Part shown: in pieces, positions 14,599 through 62,849 of the stretch | Position numbering within the stretch: position 1 is the stretch's first letter | Layout: each line of letters starts with the position of its first letter | Origin: Candidatus Cloacimonadota bacterium | Lineage (GTDB): Bacteria > Cloacimonadota > Cloacimonadia > Cloacimonadales > JAJBBL01 | NCBI GenBank assembly: GCA_019429305.1 | Contig: JAHYIR010000004.1 | Location: forward strand, 79,781-143,780 | DNA: 64,000 bases | Direction: 5' to 3' | Position numbers and translations under genes: made by a program | Notes under the pieces: model-generated | The model's database searches: none | What the model was told of the DNA's origin: nothing | What the model saw: the letters and a program-made list of their open reading frames with translations, nothing else

Positions 14599-14692
14599 GG
14601 AGATGTGTCCGAGCTGGCTGAAGGAGCACGATTGGAAATCGTGTATACGTTTAAAAAGCGTATCTAGGGTTCGAATCCCTACATCTCCGCCA
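14599..14692 (+). tRNA. tRNA-Ser (anticodon GGA), class II with long variable arm, CCA encoded
   Basis: The cloverleaf reads directly: acceptor GGAGATG/CATCTCC, anticodon stem CACGA/TCGTG with loop TTGGAAA, long variable arm TATACGTTTAAAAAGCGTATC, T arm TAGGG-TTCGAAT-CCCTA, and discriminator G + CCA. Confidence 0.9.
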
Positions 14693-14794: not shown

Positions 14795-14809
14795 AATCCC
14801 TACATCTCC
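14795..14809 (+). repeat. direct repeat of the tRNA-Ser 3' end (att-like)
   Basis: 'aatccctacatctcc' repeats tRNA bases 14674-14688 exactly. With flanks the match is gtcaatccctacatctcc versus ttcgaatccctacatctcc. Confidence 0.7.
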
Positions 14810-14872: not shown

Positions 14873-15004
14873 TGTCACCCTGAGTGACCCTTCACCAAAT
14901 TTGTAAGCACAACTGACTTCGTCGAGCTCGGAAGCAGCCACAAAGAAGTGTTTTCTTCGGTTCTTGTAGCTATAAGATTTGGTGAAGGATTGTATCGAAG
15001 GGGA
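14873..15004 (+). repeat. repeat module B carrying a nested module C (14915-14963)
   Basis: The B frame 'tgtcaccctgagtga ... ttgtatcgaagggga' encloses inner stem ccttcaccaaat/atttggtgaagg. The loop contains 'gacttcgtcgagctcggaagcagccacaaagaagtgttttcttcggttc', which is module C. Confidence 0.75.
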
Positions 15005-15045
15005 CGAAAATCTAAAACAGAGTCAGTGAATATAATCCTTGTTTT

Positions 15046-15079
15046 TGTCATGTCGAGCGAGGTCGAGACATCTCATCAC
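15046..15079 (+). repeat. repeat module A'
   Basis: 'tgtcatgtcgagcgaggtcgagacatctcatcac' has ATGTC/GACAT pairing. An inverted variant lies at 29249-29282. Confidence 0.6.
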
Positions 15080-15123
15080 TAATGTTGGTATAGCAAGCAT
15101 GCATTTATGTTTATTGTAAGTCT

Positions 15124-15187
15124 GTGATGAGATCTCTCCATTCCAAACGACTCACTACCGTGATTCTTTCTCCAGTCGAGATGACAA
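15124..15187 (-). repeat. repeat module A (long form, inverted)
   Basis: The reverse complement is 'tgtcatctcgactggagaaagaatcacggtagtgagtcgtttggaatggagagatctcatcac'. About 105 bp, including 40 bp upstream (15083-15187), matches 33853-33957. Confidence 0.8.
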
Positions 15188-15251
15188 AGGAAAGGTCTTC
15201 ACTCAGGATGACATTAAGTCAGGCAACTATTCTGTTCAAGGTATCAGTAAT

Positions 15252-28629: not shown

Positions 28630-28750
28630 TACAAATATTTTCTTTCACTGATTATGTCAAAGAGTAATCTAAAAATTGATCAATCTGTTGCTGATTCTTT
28701 AACATATACTTCAGTCTGTGCCTTATGTCATCCTGAGTAACAATATACTG

Positions 28751-28846
28751 TGTCATCTCGACTGAAGAAAGGATCACGGAAGTGGATCTTTACTAACACC
28801 ACATTTGTCATCTCGACTGGAACGAAGTGAAATGGAGAGATCTCAT
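28751..28846 (+). repeat. 96-bp direct repeat, copy 1 (A-variant + A short form)
   Basis: It is identical to 29106-29201 except for 2 mismatches (cacgGaag/cacgAaag and aacaCcac/aacaGcac). Confidence 0.9.
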
Positions 28847-28916
28847 CGGAGACTAACTTATGATTATTATGTTCTTTCTTTTGTGTCGACAAAAGAAACG
28901 AACCAAAGAAAAACTC

Positions 28917-29050
28917 CCGGCTCTACAATTAACGGTTAAAAACCTTCTCGACTCTGCATCTTTCGCTAAACTTCTCGCTTCACTTGTCAAACAGTAGCTG
29001 CGAAGCAGATTCTCGTACAGTTTTCTTAACACCGTTATTTGTAATGCCGG
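28917..29050. repeat. 134-bp element with 20-bp terminal inverted repeats (MITE-like or long hairpin)
   Basis: The left end 'ccggctctacaattaacggt' matches the reverse complement of the right end, 'ccggcattacaaataacggt', at 17/20 positions. The interior is partly self-complementary (gcttc...gaagc). Confidence 0.6.
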
Positions 29051-29105
29051 ATGATCTATTCCCACCCGCCACCCAAATGGAGCGAAGCTCCATAAAAATA
29101 TAAGT

Positions 29106-29201
29106 TGTCATCTCGACTGAAGAAAGGATCACGAAAGTGGATCTTTACTAACAGCACATTTGTCATCTCGACTGGAACGAAGTGAAATGGAGAGATCTCA
29201 T
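29106..29201 (+). repeat. 96-bp direct repeat, copy 2
   Basis: See copy 1 at 28751-28846 (94/96 identical). Confidence 0.9.
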
Positions 29202-29312
29202 TACCGACCCACTTCAAATATGAAATCAAACTCGCTATTCCAATATTAGTGATGAGATATATCGATTACAATCGAATTGACAAAAAAAAAGAAAAGAGCA
29301 AGCAAAGATGAG

Positions 29313-29383
29313 ACATATACTTCAGTCTCTGACTTATGTCATCCTGAGTGATTCAGCTCTTTTGCTGAATTGTATCGAAGGAT
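29313..29383 (+). repeat. repeat modules H + B (compact B copy)
   Basis: 'acatatacttcagtctctgacttatgtcatcctgagtgattcagctcttttgctgaattgtatcgaaggatg'. The first 39 bp repeat 28702-28740. Confidence 0.8.
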
Positions 29384-30888: not shown

Positions 30889-31218
30889 CCTTTCCTCCTT
30901 TATTTGATTTGTTAAAATCGATTTTTTACTTTACCAAGACCTCAACATGACTTGTCGGAGTAAGTTCTCGGCTTGTACTATCATTATCTAAGCAAGCACG
31001 AATTTTTCTATCCCCTCGGAGAAGAGGAGAACAGTAGAGCAAAGCAAAACTAAAAATACTAGGTTTTTCATAAAACCTCCTATCGATTCTAACCTATTCT
31101 CCGATATGTAATAACGTCAATTTTTTTTTGATCTTGCTTATTTTTCTGAGATAAATCTGAGGAATTGGCTTTTTTATGGTCGCTATAAAGTACTATTAAG
31201 TCAATAAAGAATGCCTCA

Positions 31219-31371
31219 GACATACTCGGTTTTTGCAAGTTCTGTCCCCTACGATACAATTCTTGGTAGGAAAAGCAAGGAGCCACTCCAAGAATCACTC
31301 AGGGTGACAGCAGTCTATGTTATGAAAGGTGTGTCATCTCGACTGGAACAAAGTGGAATGGAGAGATCTCA
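31219..31371. repeat. left arm of an inverted-repeat pair (modules B inverted + A forward)
   Basis: It aligns end to end with the reverse complement of 33898-34065, including the linker between modules. Confidence 0.85.
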
Positions 31372-31408
31372 ACAGAGACTAACATCAAACACAAAAACAC
31401 ATTTCACC

Positions 31409-32188
31409 TTAAAGATTCTGAGGGATGTATTTGTTATAAAATCGCTCACAGATATCCCATAATTCAGGGGTCAGGATCTCCTGTATCTTATCTACTATGG
31501 CTTGATCAATTTTACCGTAATATGCTTCGGCAATACCACCGGCTATACAAGCCAGAGTATCACTATCACCACCCAATGATATGGCATTTCGAATAGTATC
31601 TTCATAAGAGTCGGCATCGAGGAAAGAGATTATCGCTTCCGGAACTGTTCCCTGGCAAGATTCATTAAAACTATAATAGGGTCTGATCTCATCGACAGTC
31701 CGAGTCAGGTCGTAATCAAAACGTTCTGTGATTTCTTTTCTGATAACTTCCTTATCATGAGTATTTCTTGCTAAGAAGATGCTTAAGGCAGTTGCTTGTG
31801 CACCCTTGATCCCTTCAGGATGGTTATGTGAGAATTCGGCAGATCTGGCTGCTTCTCTCAATACTTCGTCAATATCGTTATAAGCAAAGCCAACGGGACT
31901 GACTCGCATTGCTGAGCCGTTACCCCAACTGTTATATGGTTGCGGATCAGCAGAAGCGAGCCAATGAATAAATGAACCACCATAACCGGAGTTAGGATAT
32001 TTTCTGCCAATTTCTAATACAGCTCTCTTATAGTCACCATCACTCAAGATAGCTTGAGCAATGGCAACAGTAAGGACTGTATCGTCTGTAAAAAAACATG
32101 TAGAATGGAACAGAGGGAAATCTTTTGTTTTGATCGGATCAAACTCATAAACAGAACCAATAATATCACCGGCGATAGCACCGAGCAT
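31409..32188 (-). CDS. ADP-ribosylglycohydrolase family protein
   Basis: The motifs are GAIAGDIIGSVYEF, GNGSAMRVSPVG and GGDSDTLACIAGGIAEAYYG. The start was chosen at the second ATG (32188), preceded by GGAGGT. The ORF-track start is 32200. Confidence 0.85.
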   Translation of the reverse strand: MLGAIAGDIIGSVYEFDPIKTKDFPLFHSTCFFTDDTVLTVAIAQAILSDGDYKRAVLEIGRKYPNSGYGGSFIHWLASADPQPYNSWGNGSAMRVSPVGFAYNDIDEVLREAARSAEFSHNHPEGIKGAQATALSIFLARNTHDKEVIRKEITERFDYDLTRTVDEIRPYYSFNESCQGTVPEAIISFLDADSYEDTIRNAISLGGDSDTLACIAGGIAEAYYGKIDQAIVDKIQEILTPELWDICERFYNKYIPQNL

Positions 32189-32225
32189 CTTTACCTCCAT
32201 CTTTTATTATTAACAAACAGAGTAA

Positions 32226-33659
32226 TTATTCTAAATCTGATCTGATCAGATCGAGAGTGAAATTTAGGACAGTGTCCTTACCGGAAGCTAAATCTTCAGA
32301 AGTTTGTTCTACATGATAATGGGGTTTAACACCTTGGTAGAGGTTTTCCTCATGGTTTGTTCCGATGAATGCTTTATGAGATACGAAATATTGCAGACCG
32401 GTATTGGGGAGCGAAAAAATGTATAGATCACCAAAACACTTGATCATACCTCCCGTCTCTTCCCCTATTATAACGGCAATATCATAGTATTTAATTGCTG
32501 CGGCAAAGTCTGAAGCACTCGAGAAAGTAAATGGTCCCGTCAGGAGATAAACCTTCCCTTCGTATCGGAAAGGATTAGGTTCGGGAGTTTTCTCTTCTAT
32601 TGGAAAGGTATAAAGTGTTCCTATAGGTGCTTTTAATACTTCATCCCATTCTTTATAGATCTCTTTGATCTGTTTACTGATCTTGATCTCTACTGCAGAA
32701 TATAGGGTAAAAGGTTCGGAGGTGAGATAGTTAAGAAATGCATCCCCTAAGAGCGAATTACCTCCGCCATTATTTCTTATATCAATGATCAGATGTGAAA
32801 TATCTTTTTCTTGAATTTGACGGAAAGTATCTGCTAAAAACTCATTGAACTTCTCTAATTCGATAAAAGAACAGAAATCTATAAAGCCGACATTCAGGTC
32901 CTCTATGATCTTGAAACTGTAAGGTTTTTCTTGCGTATGAGAGATAGCCGGTGTATCTTCGAGAGTTATTCCCTCAATTGTTGCCGATCTTAGATCATTT
33001 TTTTTAACACACAGAAATTCGATCATAAAATCATTTTTTAAGTTATATATAGTCCAAAGCAATATATGAAATACAGTTTCGAGTCTCTTTTCTCGAAATG
33101 ATATTCTCTCTCCACTGGAATAATCGAGCATTCTAGTGATAATTTCATCCATTCTGAGACCATTGATCGAGAGGATTTCTGATCCTGCTATGATCTCCAG
33201 ATCATTAAATGTATGATCAGTAATCAGTATTGCTCTCTTATCACGGATGTTAACTTTCAGCGGGAAAAATTTGCCACCCTTTTCCAAGAATTGATTCCAC
33301 CCATCTCTAGGTATTCCACCACCTGTATGCCCATCTCCCAGCATAGTAATGATAGGAGTCGCTTTCAGGAAAAAATCTAACCGGGTGGTTGGTTCTTGTA
33401 AATCTGATTTGACTTTTTCCAGCTCTGCTCTGACTGTTTTTTCTGGAGTAAAAGCGAACAGATCAGGATGTACTTCTTCCATAGTTTGGAAAAGGAAATT
33501 CAGGTCTTCGAGCAACTCTGTAGGTGAATAGAGTTTACCAATCTCATCTTCGGGAATACCAGTCTGAATTATTGAGCTAGTACTGCACCCTGTGGTTAAA
33601 AGTAATATGATAAAACAAAAGACTAACAAAGAGAAAATGATGGATCTCTTTCTTAACAT
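32226..33659 (-). CDS. peptidase S41 family lipoprotein
   Basis: The lipobox is LTTGCS. The S41 motifs are IIDIRNNGGGNS and TGPFTFSSASDFA. Confidence 0.8.
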   Translation of the reverse strand: MLRKRSIIFSLLVFCFIILLLTTGCSTSSIIQTGIPEDEIGKLYSPTELLEDLNFLFQTMEEVHPDLFAFTPEKTVRAELEKVKSDLQEPTTRLDFFLKATPIITMLGDGHTGGGIPRDGWNQFLEKGGKFFPLKVNIRDKRAILITDHTFNDLEIIAGSEILSINGLRMDEIITRMLDYSSGERISFREKRLETVFHILLWTIYNLKNDFMIEFLCVKKNDLRSATIEGITLEDTPAISHTQEKPYSFKIIEDLNVGFIDFCSFIELEKFNEFLADTFRQIQEKDISHLIIDIRNNGGGNSLLGDAFLNYLTSEPFTLYSAVEIKISKQIKEIYKEWDEVLKAPIGTLYTFPIEEKTPEPNPFRYEGKVYLLTGPFTFSSASDFAAAIKYYDIAVIIGEETGGMIKCFGDLYIFSLPNTGLQYFVSHKAFIGTNHEENLYQGVKPHYHVEQTSEDLASGKDTVLNFTLDLIRSDLE

Positions 33660-33897
33660 CAGAACACCTCAATCTTTTTCTTCTTTAAAATGCTCTTTTA
33701 GAGAGTCGATTCTATTAGTTTTGAGTAGTTCAGAGGTGTCAAATATTTTTGTAGTTTCTTATCTATTACATTTTAATGTTGAAACATGTTATGGCTTAAA
33801 GAATATGATGTTATCCATGTTCCAGAATGTAGTCGAGGTATCTCAGAACTGATGTTGGGAAAGCAAGTATGATCTTAGGTTTATTGTTGGTCGGTTA

Positions 33898-34065
33898 TGA
33901 GGTCTCTCCATTGCGAAAGACTCACTTTCGTGATTCTTTCTCCAGTCGAGATGACAAACTTTTTATAATATAGACTACTGTCACCCTGAGTGATTCTTGG
34001 AGTGGCTTCTTGTTTTGGCTTTCCAAGAATTGTATCGAAGGGGACAGAACTTGCAAATCCGAGTC
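33898..34065. repeat. right arm of the inverted-repeat pair (modules A inverted + B forward)
   Basis: Its reverse complement matches 31219-31371 at roughly 85-90% by eye. There is one 21-nt indel, because this arm has the long form of A. Confidence 0.85.
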
Positions 34066-34075
34066 TGTACAATGT

Positions 34076-34138
34076 ATCCTTCGATACATTCTGTCCTATG
34101 CAGAGCAAGAAGAATAGGCCAGAACACTCAGGATGACA
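34076..34138 (-). repeat. repeat module B (inverted)
   Basis: The reverse complement is 'tgtcatcctgagtgttctggcctattcttcttgctctgcataggacagaatgtatcgaaggat'. It resembles 62161-62223. Confidence 0.75.
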
Positions 34139-34219
34139 TATGATAGTAGTTTAAAGTCGTCAATACTGTCCTGAGCTTGAAGAAGGCTCGGAAGCAGCCA
34201 CGAAGCCAACGAGGATGTT

Positions 34220-34308
34220 GACTTCGTCGAACTCGGAAGCAGCCACGAAGAAGTGTTTTCCTCGGTTCGATACAATTCGGAAAAAGAGCCGAATCACTCA
34301 AGATGACA
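34220..34308. repeat. module C (forward) abutting module B (inverted); a partial C core lies at 34185-34205
   Basis: 'gacttcgtcgaactcggaagcagccacgaagaagtgttttcctcggttc' is followed by 'gatacaattcggaaaaagagccgaatcactcaagatgaca'. Confidence 0.75.
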
Positions 34309-35210: not shown

Positions 35211-35355
35211 CCCAGACACTAAGTGTCTGGCTATCTTATACCATACCCCTGTGTGGCATTAAAAATACCCGGAGCGTAAGCGATGGGTGATATATGATTA
35301 CCTGAGGTTTTTTAACCTCAGGCATGGGGCATAGTGCCATTTGGAGGAGGGTAGG
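35211..35355 (+). repeat. repeat modules E, E2 and F in that order
   Basis: E is cccagacactaagtgtctggctatcttataccatacccctgtgtggcat. E2 is acccggagcgtaagcgatgggtg. F is cctgaggttttttaacctcaggcatggggcatagtgccatttggaggagggtagg. The same modules occur at 61972-62119 in the order E2, F, E. Confidence 0.75.
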
Positions 35356-40114: not shown

Positions 40115-42163
40115 CTATTCAGTAGAAGCTACTACTCTATAAAATTTCTTTTGCTCGGTTAGCATCTGCGAATAAGCCGGTTCACCAACAACAGCGATCT
40201 CTTGCCAATCCTCAACGTAAGGATCATCAGATGCATAGATGATGTATGTGTTAACTCCTACAATAGCTTCCCAGCTTAAGTTGACCATGTTATCTGTTAT
40301 CGAGATCTCCACATTATGTGGAGGAAGAGGATTAAAATAAGCGATCGCAAGGTCTATATCGGCATTAAACACGAAACATATTTCAGCATCATAGAATTCT
40401 TCACTATCTAATGTCCAATTGTGAAATACCCAATCCTCAGCGGGTACGGCGAGAAGTTCAACATACTCTCCCAGGCCATAAAGAATAAATGCGGGATATT
40501 CATCTAACTCATAACTGTTCAGATGTACAGTTCCTTGACCAATAACATCAACCGAAAATCCATAATCGACAGCAATAAACATTAAACTGATTTCAATATC
40601 ATCTATGCACCAATAATTGATATTAGCTGAGTCACCTTCAAAAACCCAAGCCAAATAGATAGTCTCTGATCTTACCTGTTCTAAATAGATAAAACTCGAT
40701 ACTATTTCTGGTCCCAGATTACTATCCTGATCAATAACTGACCAGGTATCAGTCCATTCTAATCCATCAGTTGAATATTGCAGTTTAAGAGTATAAAGTC
40801 CACTATTATGATCTACATAATGCCTAAACTGAATTTCTAACCATACTTCCATATAGTCTGAGTTTTCGATGCTTTCATAGACAAGTGGTGGAGTAACAAG
40901 TTGAAATTCACCTGTTATAGACGGAGTTCCTGTAAAACTCATCTCTGGTGATATGCCACCGGCATAATTTGTGTTAGTTACACCCCAGTTAGATACATCA
41001 CTTGTCCAACCTAATGGTATTTGACCGGTTGGTGTGTTATCAAATGATTGAGAATATGGAAGTAGTGATTCTCCCAGTTCTTGCCATAAGAAATAAGGAT
41101 AGCCATCATTAATACTATAATCAATATCAGCTGACCATAAATCATCAAAATCCCAATCAACATAAGTATTTAAGGCATATGGGTAAGTCATTTCTTCCGT
41201 AATTCTACCAATACCCCCAGAACTTGATGATTGTCCGGATGTTTCTGTGTTCCAATAGCTGTTAGTTACGGTGGAACCCCATTGATATCCTACCAAACCA
41301 CCGACATATCCTTCCTCTCCACTCACAATTCCCGTGCTATAGCTGTTATGAACAGTGGCATTTCCAGATTGTCCTCCCACCAGACCACCGACATCCCAAA
41401 CTCCGCTCACATTACCTGTGCTATAACAGTTACTGATGGTAGGATACCAATATTGATACCCCACGAGCCCCCCGACATAATATACTTCAAATCCACCGCT
41501 CACATTACCCGTACTGTAACTGTTCATTACGGTGGAATAAGCACCTGCTTGGGCTCCAACAAGACCGCCGAGTTTGTAACCTGTTCCACTTATATTAGCT
41601 GTACTATAACTGTTGCTAACGGTAGCCATACTCTGCTCACCCACAAGACCACCTATACACATATAACCTGAGATATTTCCAGTGGTGTAGCAGTTGTCGA
41701 TGTAAGTAGAAGCAAATTGATATCCTGTAATGCCACCGACGTAAGAATACCCGGTTATATTAATGTTCGTCAAACGAAGGTTCTGTATATATACTCCGGC
41801 ATTCATGTAACCAAATAGTCCTATATAATTTGTTGTTGGTCGATTGATAAAAAGACCGTCAATTTTGTAGCCCAGTCCGTTATATGATGCACCAGTAAGA
41901 TAATTATCGCCATCTGTTCCTATTGGTATCCATCCTTGTCCATTAAACCAAGTAACTGTTTCCGAGGCATCAATGTCGGCTGTCTGGATAAAGTAGCTTG
42001 ACCAGTGAGAAGGGTTAACAGCTATCCAATAGAGGTTTCCCAATGAAGATATTTGATAAGGATTTGTTTCTGTTCCATCTCCTATTGACGGTGGTACTGC
42101 TGTCTGAGATAAGAGTAATGATGAAAGTAAAAGTAAAATGAAAAGCACTAATAAACGTTTCAT
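40115..42163 (-). CDS. secreted GLUG-motif repeat protein with C-terminal FN3-like domain
   Basis: A GGAGGT RBS precedes the second ATG (MKRLLVLFILLLL signal peptide). At least six ~29-aa repeats follow the pattern GGLVG.Q....V.NSYSTGNVSG. The C-terminal region is FN3-like (VNLSWEAIVGVNTYIIY..FYRVVA). Confidence 0.75.
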   Translation of the reverse strand: MKRLLVLFILLLLSSLLLSQTAVPPSIGDGTETNPYQISSLGNLYWIAVNPSHWSSYFIQTADIDASETVTWFNGQGWIPIGTDGDNYLTGASYNGLGYKIDGLFINRPTTNYIGLFGYMNAGVYIQNLRLTNINITGYSYVGGITGYQFASTYIDNCYTTGNISGYMCIGGLVGEQSMATVSNSYSTANISGTGYKLGGLVGAQAGAYSTVMNSYSTGNVSGGFEVYYVGGLVGYQYWYPTISNCYSTGNVSGVWDVGGLVGGQSGNATVHNSYSTGIVSGEEGYVGGLVGYQWGSTVTNSYWNTETSGQSSSSGGIGRITEEMTYPYALNTYVDWDFDDLWSADIDYSINDGYPYFLWQELGESLLPYSQSFDNTPTGQIPLGWTSDVSNWGVTNTNYAGGISPEMSFTGTPSITGEFQLVTPPLVYESIENSDYMEVWLEIQFRHYVDHNSGLYTLKLQYSTDGLEWTDTWSVIDQDSNLGPEIVSSFIYLEQVRSETIYLAWVFEGDSANINYWCIDDIEISLMFIAVDYGFSVDVIGQGTVHLNSYELDEYPAFILYGLGEYVELLAVPAEDWVFHNWTLDSEEFYDAEICFVFNADIDLAIAYFNPLPPHNVEISITDNMVNLSWEAIVGVNTYIIYASDDPYVEDWQEIAVVGEPAYSQMLTEQKKFYRVVASTE

Positions 42164-42365
42164 AGTAACCTCCATATATTAGATATAAAGTATATCAATA
42201 AGACTGAAAAAGTTCATTGAATTGTCAAGAAAATTTGATAAGATTAGGTTTTTTTATTATGATGTCAGTCACAGCTTAATAATTTAAATCAGATAAGCAA
42301 ATTCTCTACAAAGTCCAAAAAATCCACTTCTTGATTTTTACTTGCCCCAAAGCATCCTACTAGAC

Positions 42366-42437
42366 ACTTTCCTCGGTTCTTTAGAATTGATAACGTCGAG
42401 CTCAGAAGCAGAGAGTAAGAAGTAGTTCCCTCGGTTC
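42366..42437. repeat. degenerate module C-related repeat
   Basis: 'actttcctcggttc...cgtcgagctcagaagcag...agttccctcggttc' shares the cgtcgagctc.gaagcag and cctcggttc blocks with module C. Confidence 0.5.
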
Positions 42438-59852: not shown

Positions 59853-59925
59853 TGTAGGGGCGGTTGACTTCGTCGAGCTTGGAAGCAGCCACGAGGAAGC
59901 ACTTTCCTCGGTTCATGAACCGCCC
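59853..59925 (+). repeat. repeat module D split by a 48-bp module C insertion (59866-59913)
   Basis: The sequence 'tgtaggggcggtt' + C + 'catgaaccgccc' compares with the uninterrupted 'tgtaggggcggttcatgaaccgccc' at 38257-38281. Confidence 0.85.
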
Positions 59926-61971: not shown

Positions 61972-62119
61972 ACCCGGAGCGTAGTTATGGGTGTAATAAT
62001 ATAGCCTGCGATTTTAGTCGCTGATAATGGAGCACCGCTCCATTTGGGTGGGTGGTAAAAGATCATTCAAATCCAGACAATAGTGTCTGGCTATCTTATG
62101 CCATACCCCTGCGGGGCGT
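61972..62119 (+). repeat. repeat modules E2, F and E in that order
   Basis: E2 is acccggagcgtagttatgggtg. F is cctgcgattttagtcgctgataatggagcaccgctccatttgggtgggtgg. E is ccagacaatagtgtctggctatcttatgccatacccctgcggggcgt. Confidence 0.75.
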
Positions 62120-62160
62120 GGTGTTTGATGCCTTGCTATGATAAGGTTTCTGCAAAGATT

Positions 62161-62247
62161 ATCCTATGATACATTCTGCCTAAAGCAGAGCAAGAAGCAA
62201 AGGTCAAAGCACTCAGGATGACAAAAAGATAAGACTGAAGTCTATGT
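62161..62247 (-). repeat. repeat modules B and H (both inverted)
   Basis: The reverse complement reads 'acatagacttcagtcttatctttttgtcatcctgagtg...gaatgtatcataggat'. The H-then-B order matches 28702-28740 and 29313-29383. Confidence 0.7.
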
Positions 62248-62321
62248 TACGGAAACAGCCATGAGCTCTGAAATACAAATGATACTTGACATAAATCAAT
62301 TTTATTAAAAGTCTTACCCTC

Positions 62322-62849
62322 ATGAGTATAAAAGAGCAGAGCTATCAGGGAGTTAATTTCTGTCTTCGTTGTGGAAATAAACTGCAGTTTATTCGGGACT
62401 CTGAAGATAAGCTTCGTAAGAAATGTGAACATTGCGGTTGGACTTATTACAAGAATCCGATCCCTGCTGTTGCTTGTGTTGTCTTTAATGAAGCCGGAGA
62501 GATCCTGATCATTAAACGCTTAATTGAGCCGAAAGCGGGTGAATGGGCTTTGCCGAGCGGTTATATTGAAATAGATCAGAGTCCTGAACAAGCTGCTTTA
62601 GATGAGTTGTTAGAAGAGACAGGATTAGAAGGGCGAATTAAGAAGTTTCTCGGTTATTATGACGGAACTTCGCCGTTCTATGAAAAGGTTCTATCTCTCG
62701 GTTTTCTCATGAAGAAGACTGGAGGTAAGTTAGAAGCGGGAGACGATGCCGGTGAAGCCAAATTTGTCTCGCTGGATAAACTGCCTAAACTCGCCTTTTT
62801 GGCCCATGAACAATTTGTCAAGGTAGCTCAAGCAGAAGTATTCAAATAG
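62322..62849 (+). CDS. NUDIX hydrolase with N-terminal zinc ribbon
   Basis: The CxxC...CxxC ribbon is CLRCGNK..CEHCGW. The Nudix box is GEWALPSGYIEIDQSPEQAALDELLEETGL. Confidence 0.85.
   Translation: MSIKEQSYQGVNFCLRCGNKLQFIRDSEDKLRKKCEHCGWTYYKNPIPAVACVVFNEAGEILIIKRLIEPKAGEWALPSGYIEIDQSPEQAALDELLEETGLEGRIKKFLGYYDGTSPFYEKVLSLGFLMKKTGGKLEAGDDAGEAKFVSLDKLPKLAFLAHEQFVKVAQAEVFK

What the first reader, a model, noticed from the sequence alone, without database searches (positions are those of the whole stretch)
31219..34065. Two-gene cassette (S41 peptidase + ADP-ribosylglycohydrolase) bracketed by ~150-170 bp inverted repeats
The left arm (31219-31371) and the reverse complement of the right arm (33898-34065) align end to end. 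The shared order is 'actcgg.tttgcaagttctgtcccc', then a B module (gtcaccctgagtgattcttgg...ccaagaattgtatcg.agggga), then a conserved linker (cag[c/t]agtctat[g/a]ttat[g/a]aaa), then an A module (tgtcatctcgactgga...aatggagaga.ctca). Identity is roughly 85-90% by eye, with one 21-nt indel where the right arm has the long form of A. Because the linker between modules is conserved too, the two arms are copies of one composite unit and not independent module insertions. The arms enclose exactly two minus-strand genes (32226-33659 and 31409-32188) plus their upstream region. This geometry fits a composite-transposon-like mobile cassette, or a segment that can invert by recombination between the arms. 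No transposase or recombinase is present in the window.
Basis: seen in the sequence. Interest (0 to 1): 0.7.

Follow-up and report, generated by a model that had tools for sequence, protein, structure and literature searches.

The report
Hairpin repeat dimers flanking an ordinary operon
The two inverted arms are real, but they are copies of a small non-coding hairpin-repeat pair of a kind that fills most intergenic gaps here and occurs in many bacterial phyla, so the two genes between them look like an ordinary operon and not a mobile or switchable cassette.

Summary
The inverted repeat is real. Left arm 31219-31371 and right arm 33898-34065 share 90.5% identity over 148 aligned bases, far above chance. 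The arms are not transposon ends. Each is a head-to-head pair of two hairpin modules, B and A, joined by a conserved 22-nt spacer. Both modules start with TGTC followed by AT, as in the CGTC/TGTC-tagged REP superfamily (Di Nocera 2013), where head-to-head heterodimers with conserved spacers are typical. The same modules fill every sizeable intergenic gap from 28.6 to 34.4 kb and two gaps elsewhere in the window. Exact-pattern scans found them in many phyla, with covarying inner stems. A related mosaic sits beside an unrelated gene in another metagenome. I found no target-site duplication, no transposase or recombinase in 64 kb, and no compositional anomaly. The S41-ARH adjacency is not conserved in the nearest relatives. 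Homologous inversion remains possible (30-nt identical run) but has no support. In passing: in other genomes, small GIY-YIG nuclease genes are flanked by these modules (6 of 7 protein-selected genes on both sides). Nuclease subfamily tracks module type. This suggests a partner enzyme for a repeat family said to lack one.

The parts
31219..31242 (-). Left arm, arm-specific tail beyond the 3' end of B (ACTCGG..TTTGCAAGTTCTG). It holds a promoter-like TTGCAA -35 box that points into the cassette.
   Evidence: Shared only with 34047-34065. Promoter-like TTGCAA-16-TACAAT at 31233-31260(+).
31243..31309 (-). Left arm, B module: TGTCACCCTGAGTGAT-[inner hairpin TTCTTGG..CCAAGAA]-ATTGTATCGTAGGGGACA.
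   Evidence: Folds as a two-tier hairpin. The family structure is supported by covariation.
31310..31331 (.). Left arm, 22-nt spacer of the head-to-head dimer (GCAGTCTATGTTATGAAAGGTG).
   Evidence: 17/22 identical to 33957-33978 in reverse complement. The AGTCTATGTTA core also lies beside B-type heads at 62238 and, in reverse complement, at 28702 and 29313.
31332..31371 (+). Left arm, A module, short form (TGTCATCTCGACTGGA-ACAAAGTG-GAATGGAGAGATCTCA). It does not fold stably.
   Evidence: z = +1.0 as DNA and +0.25 as RNA.
31409..32200 (-). ADP-ribosylglycohydrolase gene (263 aa).
   Evidence: Pfam PF03747, E=4.9e-35.
32226..33659 (-). S41-family peptidase gene (477 aa), 25 nt upstream of the ARH gene on the same strand (probable operon).
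   Evidence: Pfam PF03572, E=5.4e-19. 100% match to the hypothetical protein K0B81_03445 of a Candidatus Cloacimonetes MAG.
33822..33897 (+). Degenerate C-type module plus spacer. It is the tail-to-tail partner of the right arm's A module.
   Evidence: 33832-33958 is 83% identical to 15062-15188, where the intact C module TGTCATGTCGAGCGAGGTCGAGACATCTCA is present.
33898..33956 (-). Right arm, A module, long form with an inner hairpin AAAGAATCAC-GAAA-GTGAGTCTTT.
   Evidence: Hairpin z = -2.9 as DNA and -3.3 as RNA.
33957..33978 (.). Right arm, 22-nt spacer of the head-to-head dimer.
33979..34046 (+). Right arm, B module.
   Evidence: Hairpin z = -3.0 as DNA. As RNA the given strand folds at -27.3 kcal/mol and the opposite strand at -19.2.
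34047..34065 (+). Right arm, arm-specific tail.
   Evidence: Promoter-like site 34056-34029(-) pointing towards the S41 gene.
34074..34138 (-).
   Evidence: 79% identical to 62149-62223. Also present in the L166 mosaic.
34266..34308 (-). A further B-type module (inner stem ATTCGG/CCGAAT), next to a copy of the 50-nt D1 repeat (34219-34268).
14873..15213 (.). Another intergenic mosaic of the same families: B with a D1 repeat nested in its loop, a tail-to-tail C/A-long dimer, and a B head.
28702..29381 (+). Another intergenic mosaic: B head, two A'+A tandem pairs (122-nt direct repeat, 90%) and B, all on the + strand.
62149..62260 (-). B'-type module with the AGTCTATGTTA flank.

Best explanation
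The arms are two copies of a small non-coding repeat unit. The unit is a head-to-head heterodimer of two hairpin modules, B and A, joined by a conserved 22-nt spacer. Both modules belong to, or are larger relatives of, the CGTC/TGTC-tagged REP superfamily. Each module has an unpaired TGTC tag, an outer helix that begins with A-T and T-A, a purine-rich internal loop and a freely variable inner hairpin. Such modules accumulate in intergenic spacers as BIME-like mosaics. Here they occupy both boundaries of an ordinary chromosomal S41 peptidase-ADP-ribosylglycohydrolase operon, and the boundaries of its neighbours as well. Shown: the dimer was copied as a unit; the modules are hairpins under structural constraint; they are strongly intergenic; they are widespread across phyla. 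Inferred: the inverted arrangement is incidental, since two neighbouring copies are inverted half the time by chance. Inferred: the modules spread as non-autonomous elements through recognition of the folded single strand by a trans-acting nuclease. The candidate nuclease, seen in other genomes only, is a small GIY-YIG protein. Inferred: in transcripts the hairpins may stabilise or end the mRNA. B lies in its better-folding orientation about 100-170 nt downstream of the ARH stop codon.
For: Arm homology of 90.5% through tail, B, spacer and the A head. There are 17 TGTCAY heads in 9.5 kb of intergenic DNA against 13 in 54.5 kb of coding DNA. They cluster in five intergenic regions, including all sizeable ones from 28.6 to 34.4 kb. 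A and B occur in many phyla with invariant flanks and variable inner hairpins. Covariation: in B, pairs 6-44, 17-30, 19-28 and 21-26 change on both sides, and 0/500 shuffles reach the score. In A, 4 of 5 pairs of the inner helix change on both sides, 0/500. Fold z-scores are -2.9 to -4.2 for B and A-long. Di Nocera 2013 (PMC3733652) describes CGTC REPs in which the tag is often TGTC, stems start with AT, units are mostly HH dimers, HH spacers are conserved and heterodimers are common. The same mosaic is found in L166 beside an unrelated gene. HH dimers are present in 20 loci. No TSD. No transposase or recombinase in 64 kb. No compositional anomaly.
Against: Within the 64-kb window the B-spacer-A heterodimer occurs only at these two sites, 2.5 kb apart, and the two copies are each other's closest relatives. 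That is more local than random scatter predicts. The S41-ARH adjacency is absent in the two nearest relatives, so a rearrangement involving the repeats cannot be excluded. The modules are larger and more complex than classical REPs (40-70 nt, two-tier hairpin, no CCA tail). The left A module does not fold. The rest of the source genome could not be examined.
Confidence: 0.8

Rival explanations
1. The arms are substrates for occasional RecA-dependent homologous recombination that inverts the 2.5-kb segment. A past event of this kind may have produced the present gene order.
For: The arms are inverted, 90.5% identical, with a 30-nt perfectly identical run. That length is about the minimum for efficient homologous recombination in E. 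coli (my own knowledge, not tested). S41 and ARH are not adjacent in the nearest relatives: they lie 3.6 kb apart in L001, and L003 has no ARH downstream of S41. The two most similar dimer copies are neighbours.
Against: There is no evidence for the other orientation. GC3 skew of both genes has the same sign as in the other minus-strand genes. The gene order in L001 differs by a transposition-like change, not by a simple inversion of this segment. There is no recombinase nearby. Both genes lie on the same strand as the 15 upstream genes.
Confidence: 0.12
2. The segment is a composite-transposon-like mobile cassette. The arms act as the ends, and a transposase encoded elsewhere moves arm-S41-ARH-arm as a unit.
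For: Inverted, near-identical ends enclose exactly one operon. In other genomes modules of this family flank GIY-YIG nuclease genes like terminal repeats.
Against: No TSD. The arms hold no ORF. There is no transposase in 64 kb. The composition is native. The relatives that carry S41 and ARH homologues have no such modules around them. The same modules bracket neighbouring, unrelated transcription units.
Confidence: 0.03
3. The arms are primarily cis-acting RNA elements of the operon: a 5' leader or promoter on the right and a 3' stabiliser or terminator on the left, selected for that role and not selfish repeats.
For: B folds better on one strand (-27.3 against -19.2 kcal/mol). It keeps invariant U.G and G.U pairs. 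That strand is the sense strand downstream of ARH. A promoter-like TTGCAA-16-TACAAT in the right arm points at the S41 gene.
Against: Module orientation relative to neighbouring genes is mixed: all six heads in 28.7-29.4 kb are antisense to both flanking genes, and 62223 is antisense too. The same promoter-like site in the left arm points antisense into ARH. No intrinsic terminator was predicted in the left arm. Rfam has no match.
Confidence: 0.1

Closest known systems
CGTC/TGTC-tagged REP superfamily (Di Nocera, De Gregorio & Rocco 2013, BMC Genomics 14:522, PMC3733652)
   Same: Unpaired (C/T)GTC tag at one end. The stem begins with A-T and T-A. Multi-copy and intergenic. Mostly head-to-head dimers, HH spacers conserved, heterodimers common. 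Present in several phyla. No transposase nearby (searches compared).
   Different: The window's modules are 40-70 nt long with a two-tier hairpin (outer helix, purine-rich internal loop, variable inner hairpin), not an 8-9 bp stem with a 4-5 nt loop. There is no CCA tail. The A and B flanks are conserved almost base for base across phyla.
REPIN/RAYT systems (Bertels & Rainey 2011, PMC3116915; PMC3337134)
   Same: The unit that was copied is a doublet of inverted REP-like modules with a spacer, not a single module.
   Different: The doublet is a heterodimer whose halves fold separately. No RAYT or IS200-like gene was seen in the window or as a recurrent neighbour in 120 module-bearing loci. The recurrent neighbour there is a small GIY-YIG nuclease.
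BIMEs of enterobacteria (mosaics of REP variants and fixed linkers)
   Same: Intergenic mosaics built from a few module types and conserved linkers in various orders and orientations, including nesting.
   Different: Unrelated sequences and a different tag. Binding of IHF or gyrase is not testable here. This comparison rests on my own knowledge of BIMEs.
Composite transposon or invertible DNA segment (inverton, shufflon)
   Same: Inverted repeats bracketing genes.
   Different: No IS, transposase, TSD or site-specific recombinase. The arms are members of a dispersed repeat family.

Membership tests
Composite transposon | Two IS copies (each with a transposase gene and its own ends) flank the cargo | tested here: not met
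   The arms are 153 and 168 nt of hairpin modules and carry no plausible gene. No transposase among 48 ORFs scanned in the window.
Composite transposon | Target-site duplication directly outside the two ends | tested here: not met
   No direct repeat of 5 nt or more between 31196-31232 and 34051-34090.
Composite transposon | Presence/absence polymorphism, or a second copy elsewhere | not testable with these tools
   The closest S41 homologue is 53% identical. The relatives L001 and L003 are not syntenic.
Site-specific invertible segment | Invertase or recombinase gene adjacent to or inside the segment | tested here: not met
   No recombinase domain in any ORF scanned in the 64-kb window.
Site-specific invertible segment | Both orientations present in the population | not testable with these tools
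   No reads are available. GC3 skew of the genes matches that of other minus-strand genes.
CGTC/TGTC-tagged REP superfamily | Unpaired CGTC (or TGTC/CCTC) tag at one end | tested here: met
   All 17 intergenic heads read TGTCA(T/C). The same holds in 143 A and 57 B instances from other genomes.
CGTC/TGTC-tagged REP superfamily | Stem whose first two pairs are A-T and T-A | tested here: met
   A: ATCTC/GAGAT, invariant. B: A5-U45 in 15/16 copies and Y6-R44 covarying, C-G 8 and U-A 7.
CGTC/TGTC-tagged REP superfamily | Simple 20-40 bp palindrome with an 8-9 bp stem, a 4-5 nt loop and a CCA tail | tested here: not met
   The modules are 40-69 nt with an internal loop and a second, variable hairpin, and have no CCA tail. 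The classical form does occur in L174/L179.
CGTC/TGTC-tagged REP superfamily | Mostly head-to-head dimers, with conserved HH spacers | tested here: met
   Both arms are HH dimers with 22-nt spacers that are 17/22 identical. There are 27 HH dimers in 20 loci.
CGTC/TGTC-tagged REP superfamily | High copy number, predominantly extragenic | tested here: inconclusive
   Strong intergenic enrichment within the window.
REPIN/RAYT | The doublet folds into one long hairpin | tested here: not met
   The right arm folds as two separate hairpins. The left arm scores z = +0.2.
REPIN/RAYT | Cognate RAYT (Y1 HUH) gene flanked by the repeats | tested here: not met
   None in the window. No recurrent family of about IS200 size among ORFs of 120 module-bearing loci. 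The only recurrent small family is GIY-YIG.
MITE | Terminal inverted repeats, a TSD, and a related autonomous IS | tested here: inconclusive
   B has TGTCAYCC...GGRTGACA termini. TSDs of single modules were not examined. No IS was found, but GIY-YIG genes sit between such modules in other genomes.

The most novel reading that the evidence does not exclude
The arms belong to a cross-phylum family of structured TGTC/CGTC-tagged hairpin elements whose missing partner enzyme is a small (about 95 aa) stand-alone GIY-YIG nuclease. On this reading GIY-YIG genes flanked by the modules are the autonomous form, analogous to RAYT 'REPtrons', and the dimers around the S41-ARH operon are its non-autonomous derivatives. 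The arms would then be potential nuclease-cut sites that can drive local duplication or rearrangement. In the searchable literature CGTC REPs are said to lack a dedicated transposase.
Probability: 0.35. Interest if true: 0.75.

Novelty: new member of a known kind. Interest (0 to 1): 0.4.

Why it matters
For this window it prevents a misannotation. The S41-ARH pair is a native operon, and its inverted flanks are dispersed repeat dimers, not transposon ends. More broadly, A and B show that REP-like elements with almost identical recognition flanks and free inner hairpins exist in Cloacimonadota, CPR groups (Patescibacteria, Gracilibacteria, Saccharimonadia), Bacteroidota, Planctomycetota, Chloroflexota, Acidobacteriota, Bacillota (Clostridia), Actinomycetota (Coriobacteriia) and Gammaproteobacteria. 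The repeated finding of small GIY-YIG nuclease genes sitting between such modules, with nuclease subfamily tracking module type, gives a concrete and testable candidate for what mobilises CGTC-type REPs. That question was left open in 2013.

Tried and rejected
1. Rfam at gathering threshold on the whole window, and at E<=10 on 28.6-34.5 kb, gave only noise.
2. I considered a hammerhead core (CUGANGA...GAAA) and a kink-turn in B by eye. The hammerhead is rejected: there is no third helix, and many A copies have CUGGAG. The kink-turn (GA/GA next to the outer helix plus a 3-nt bulge) is possible but untestable, because those bases are invariant.
3. A literature search for the module sequences themselves returned nothing relevant.
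4. Exact look-up of the window's own S41 and ARH proteins found no record.
5. Synteny: the nearest S41 homologues (49-53% identical) are in non-syntenic contexts and lack the modules.
7. A naive ends-inward pairing test of the inner segments failed because the boundaries are offset. I replaced it with folding and equal-length alignments.
8. PADLOC gave no defence-system hit for the cassette proteins.
9. tblastn of 17 GIY-YIG proteins against the window found no gene or remnant.
10. I looked for a RAYT/IS200-like neighbour by clustering ORFs of 120 loci and found none.
Full report
OBSERVATION. The repeat finder reports 31272-31347/33941-34016 (76 nt, 91%) and 31232-31266/34023-34057 (35 nt, 97%). 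blastn joins them into 117 nt at 89.7%, E=1e-32. A global alignment of 31219-31371 with the reverse complement of 33898-34065 has 134 matches, 14 mismatches and 25 gap columns, which is 90.5% identity. The local score is 99 against 9.1 +/- 1.5 for shuffles. The order is an arm-specific tail, module B, a 22-nt spacer, then module A. The gap is not a single 21-nt indel. The right A carries an inner hairpin (AAAGAATCAC-GAAA-GTGAGTCTTT), and in the left A both of its stem arms are missing. The left A is most like the copies at 28806 and 29161. The right A with its downstream tail is most like 15062-15188 (83% over 127 nt). The enclosed genes are an S41 peptidase (32226-33659, minus strand) and an ADP-ribosylglycohydrolase (31409-32200, minus strand), 25 nt apart.

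ANATOMY OF THE ARMS. Both modules begin with TGTCA(T/C). In each arm they face each other head to head...CTCAGGGTGACA - 22 nt - TGTCATCTCGAC.... B reads TGTCAYCCTGAGTGAT-[variable hairpin]-ATTGTATCGAAGGRTGACA. A reads TGTCATCTCGACTGRA-[variable hairpin]-NAATGGAGAGATCT. B and the long A fold as two-tier hairpins, with z = -2.9 to -3.0 under DNA parameters and -3.3 to -4.2 under RNA parameters. The short A of the left arm does not fold. B folds better on the strand written above (-27.3 against -19.2 kcal/mol).

THE MODULES ARE A DISPERSED REPEAT FAMILY. In the window, 17 TGTCAY heads lie in about 9.5 kb of intergenic DNA, against 13 pattern matches in 54.5 kb of coding DNA. The intergenic heads cluster in five regions: 14.3-15.4, 28.6-29.5, 30.9-31.4, 33.7-34.4 and 61.8-62.3 kb. 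Every sizeable intergenic region from 28.6 to 34.4 kb holds modules. The neighbouring FGE-sulfatase-domain gene is therefore bracketed in the same way as the S41-ARH operon. Orientation relative to flanking genes is mixed. The regions are mosaics. They contain tail-to-tail C/A dimers (15046-15186 and, degenerate, 33822-33956), A'+A tandems (28738-28859 and 29093-29214, 90%), B'-type modules (34074-34138, 62159-62223), and a 50-nt D1 repeat that at 14914 sits inside the loop of a B module.

THE MODULES ARE NOT SPECIFIC TO THIS GENOME. The source is a Candidatus Cloacimonetes MAG. An exact-pattern scan for A in one genome per GTDB species hit its 120-locus limit. Hits came from Patescibacteria, Gracilibacteria, Saccharimonadia, Coriobacteriia, Bacteroidota, Planctomycetota, Balneolia, Gammaproteobacteria, Acidobacteriota, Chloroflexota, Clostridia, Atribacterota and Kiritimatiellae. 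The flanks are constant and the inner hairpin differs freely; examples are GGCCGTTAGGCC, GGTGCGAAGCACC and CCCCGCAAAGCGGGG. A metagenome scan for B gave 50 loci with the same behaviour.

COVARIATION. On 16 equal-length B copies, pairs 6-44 (C-G 8, U-A 7), 17-30, 19-28 and 21-26 change on both sides, and 0 of 500 shuffles reach the observed score. Two wobble pairs (13-34 and 14-33) are invariant, which makes the structure strand-specific. On 12 equal-length A copies, 4 of the 5 inner-helix pairs change on both sides, again 0/500.

A RELATED MOSAIC IN ANOTHER GENOME. Contig L166 carries a block homologous to window 33831-34140 (73.6% over 318 nt). The block includes the A-spacer-B dimer with the same B inner stem. 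It lies next to a gene that has no homologue in the window.

WHAT KIND OF THING THIS IS. Di Nocera et al. 2013 (PMC3733652) define a CGTC-tagged REP superfamily. The tag is often TGTC, stems begin with A-T and T-A, units are mostly head-to-head dimers, HH spacers are conserved and heterodimers are common. The family is found in five phyla and has no dedicated transposase. A and B meet the tag, AT-start, HH-dimer, conserved-spacer and intergenic criteria. They do not meet the size and shape criteria (8-9 bp stem, 4-5 nt loop, CCA tail). I therefore treat them as larger relatives within that superfamily and not as proven members. The arms correspond to REPIN-like doublets (abstract of PMC3337134), but as heterodimers that fold as two separate hairpins. 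Rfam has no matching family.

TESTS OF THE CASSETTE IDEA. No direct repeat of 5 nt or more lies outside the arms. The 48 ORFs I scanned (47 of at least 120 aa plus one 70-aa ORF; 62322-62849 was not scanned) encode housekeeping functions. These include gcvT, tmk, a PDZ-S41 protease, hslUV, ftsH, hpt, tilS, trehalose enzymes, MatE, TldD/PmbA, the bat operon, argS and folK. None carries a transposase, integrase, recombinase or GIY-YIG domain. GC (0.413 and 0.374), GC3 (0.333 and 0.339) and GC3 skew of the two genes fall within the window's range. PADLOC finds nothing. The nearest S41 homologues are only 49-53% identical. In L001 the ARH and S41 genes lie 3.6 kb apart, with DUF3326, a tyrosine recombinase and an FGE-sulfatase gene between them. 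In L003 no ARH gene follows S41. Neither locus has the modules. Nothing therefore indicates that arm-S41-ARH-arm moves as a unit. The non-conserved adjacency, and the fact that the two most similar dimer copies are neighbours, leave room for a past repeat-mediated rearrangement. The longest identical run between the arms is 30 nt, which is about the minimum for efficient RecA-dependent exchange (my own knowledge). Rare inversion is thus possible but unsupported. A promoter-like TTGCAA-16-TACAAT lies in both arms and points inward on both sides. This is a consensus match only.

MECHANISM. Shown: the B-spacer-A dimer was duplicated as a unit; the modules are hairpins maintained by selection on structure; they are intergenic; they are shared across phyla. 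Inferred: they are non-autonomous elements propagated through recognition of the folded single strand. Inferred: their presence at both ends of the operon is incidental, since the chance of inverted orientation is one half. Inferred: any effect on the operon is secondary, such as an mRNA 3' hairpin or a recombination substrate.

SIDE FINDING: GIY-YIG GENES, FIRST SIGNAL. Clustering all ORFs of the 120 A-bearing loci gave only one recurrent small family, a roughly 95-aa GIY-YIG protein (PF01541), present in 7 loci. Its genes are flanked directly by (C/T)GTCAT modules. Of the six that could be evaluated, 3 have a head within 150 nt on both sides, against 33 of 688 ORFs in the same loci.

SIDE FINDING: TESTS ON INDEPENDENT SAMPLES. 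I then picked seven GIY-YIG homologues by protein similarity alone and fetched their loci. Six have modules on both sides and one on one side only. In a complete Roizmanbacteria genome the gene sits between aGTCATCCCGACCGTTAGTGGAAGGATCC and GGATTCCTCGACGTTGCTCGGAATGACA, between Lactamase_B and dnaB genes. In L174 and L179 the flanks are classical CGTCATTGCCCGG...CCGGGCAATCCAG REPs. Among the 50 B-selected metagenome loci, five independent ones have a GIY-YIG gene 12-310 nt from the seed B module. One of these, L128, has two near-identical copies of the unit B'-gene-B.

SIDE FINDING: SUBFAMILIES, PRIOR LITERATURE AND LIMITS. Nucleases flanked by the same module type are each other's closest relatives. 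For the A type, L066 and L097 share 55% and an insertion. For the TGTCATTCCC type, L177, L180 and L181 share 68-76%. For the CGTCATTGCCCGG type, identity is 93%. For the B type, L128, L139 and L150 share 53-57% and have at most 48% to the others. No paper in the searchable library links GIY-YIG with REPs, REPINs, RAYTs or MITEs. That library is incomplete. The window itself has no GIY-YIG gene, so the link is not shown for this genome. The association could also mean that the nuclease gene homes into REP sites.

VERDICT. The composite-unit inference is right. The mobile or invertible cassette reading is not supported. The arms are a new example, in a Cloacimonadota genome, of a known kind of intergenic repeat dimer. 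The more interesting lead is the family itself and its apparent GIY-YIG partner.

Noticed in passing
L019, L026, L066, L092, L097, L128, L139, L150, L174-L182 (other genomes; none in the window): Small stand-alone GIY-YIG nuclease genes (about 95 aa) sit directly between (C/T)GTCAT-tagged hairpin modules. Of 7 genes chosen by protein similarity alone, 6 are flanked on both sides. Nuclease subfamily tracks module type. L128 has two near-identical copies of the unit module-gene-module. This may be the missing partner enzyme of CGTC-type REPs.
   Followed up: partly
window 31332-31371, 33898-33956 and 120 loci L004-L123: The A module flanks (TGTCATCTCGACTGRA ... AATGGAGAGATCT) are conserved almost base for base across more than 10 phyla, while the inner hairpin varies freely. 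Loops are often GNA or GNNA, for example GCGAAGC. Matches often lie at contig ends or in arrays (L039 has 6 copies in 1 kb).
   Followed up: partly
window 14914-14963, 34219-34268, 42388-42437, 59865-59914: A separate 50-nt repeat family (TGACTTCGTCGAGCTCGGAAGCAGCCAC...). The copy at 14914 is nested inside the loop of a B module (14873-15005). At 34187-34250 its 19-nt core is duplicated 45 nt apart.
   Followed up: no
window 14599-14692 and 14795-14809: The last 15 nt before the CCA end of tRNA-Ser(GGA), AATCCCTACATCTCC, recur exactly 121 nt downstream (0 expected by chance). This looks like an att-type remnant of an integration next to the tRNA.
   Followed up: partly
window 28738-28859 and 29093-29214: A 122-nt direct repeat (90%) made of an A'+A tandem pair flanks a 233-nt stretch that holds a 70-aa ORF (28853-29065, minus strand) with no Pfam match.
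   Followed up: partly
window 35222-35257 / 62082-62117 and 29064-29093 / 62027-62056: Two further short repeat families unrelated to A and B. One is a 36-nt direct repeat at 92%. The other is a 30-nt inverted repeat at 87% (ACCCGCCACCCAAATGGAGCGAAGCTCCAT).
   Followed up: no
window 31233-31260 (+) and 34056-34029 (-): Each arm contains the same promoter-like TTGCAA-16-TACAAT, and both point into the cassette. The right one faces the S41 gene, and the left one is antisense to ARH. The -10-like box is part of the conserved B core.
   Followed up: no
L001 5570-11428 (JGI 3300033169): In the nearest long relative, the ARH and S41 homologues lie on one strand 3.6 kb apart, with DUF3326, a tyrosine recombinase and an FGE-sulfatase gene between them. 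The same three enzyme types (ARH, FGE-sulfatase domain, S41) are also neighbours in the window, but in a different order.
   Followed up: partly
L180 801-1091 (JGI 3300003453): A GIY-YIG gene with a downstream TGTCAT module is inserted between cas7 and cas5d genes of a CRISPR-Cas operon.
   Followed up: no
window 41271-41743: Degenerate tandem repeats with periods of about 84-93 nt lie inside the GLUG-motif protein gene (40115-42175, minus strand). They are coding repeats.
   Followed up: no
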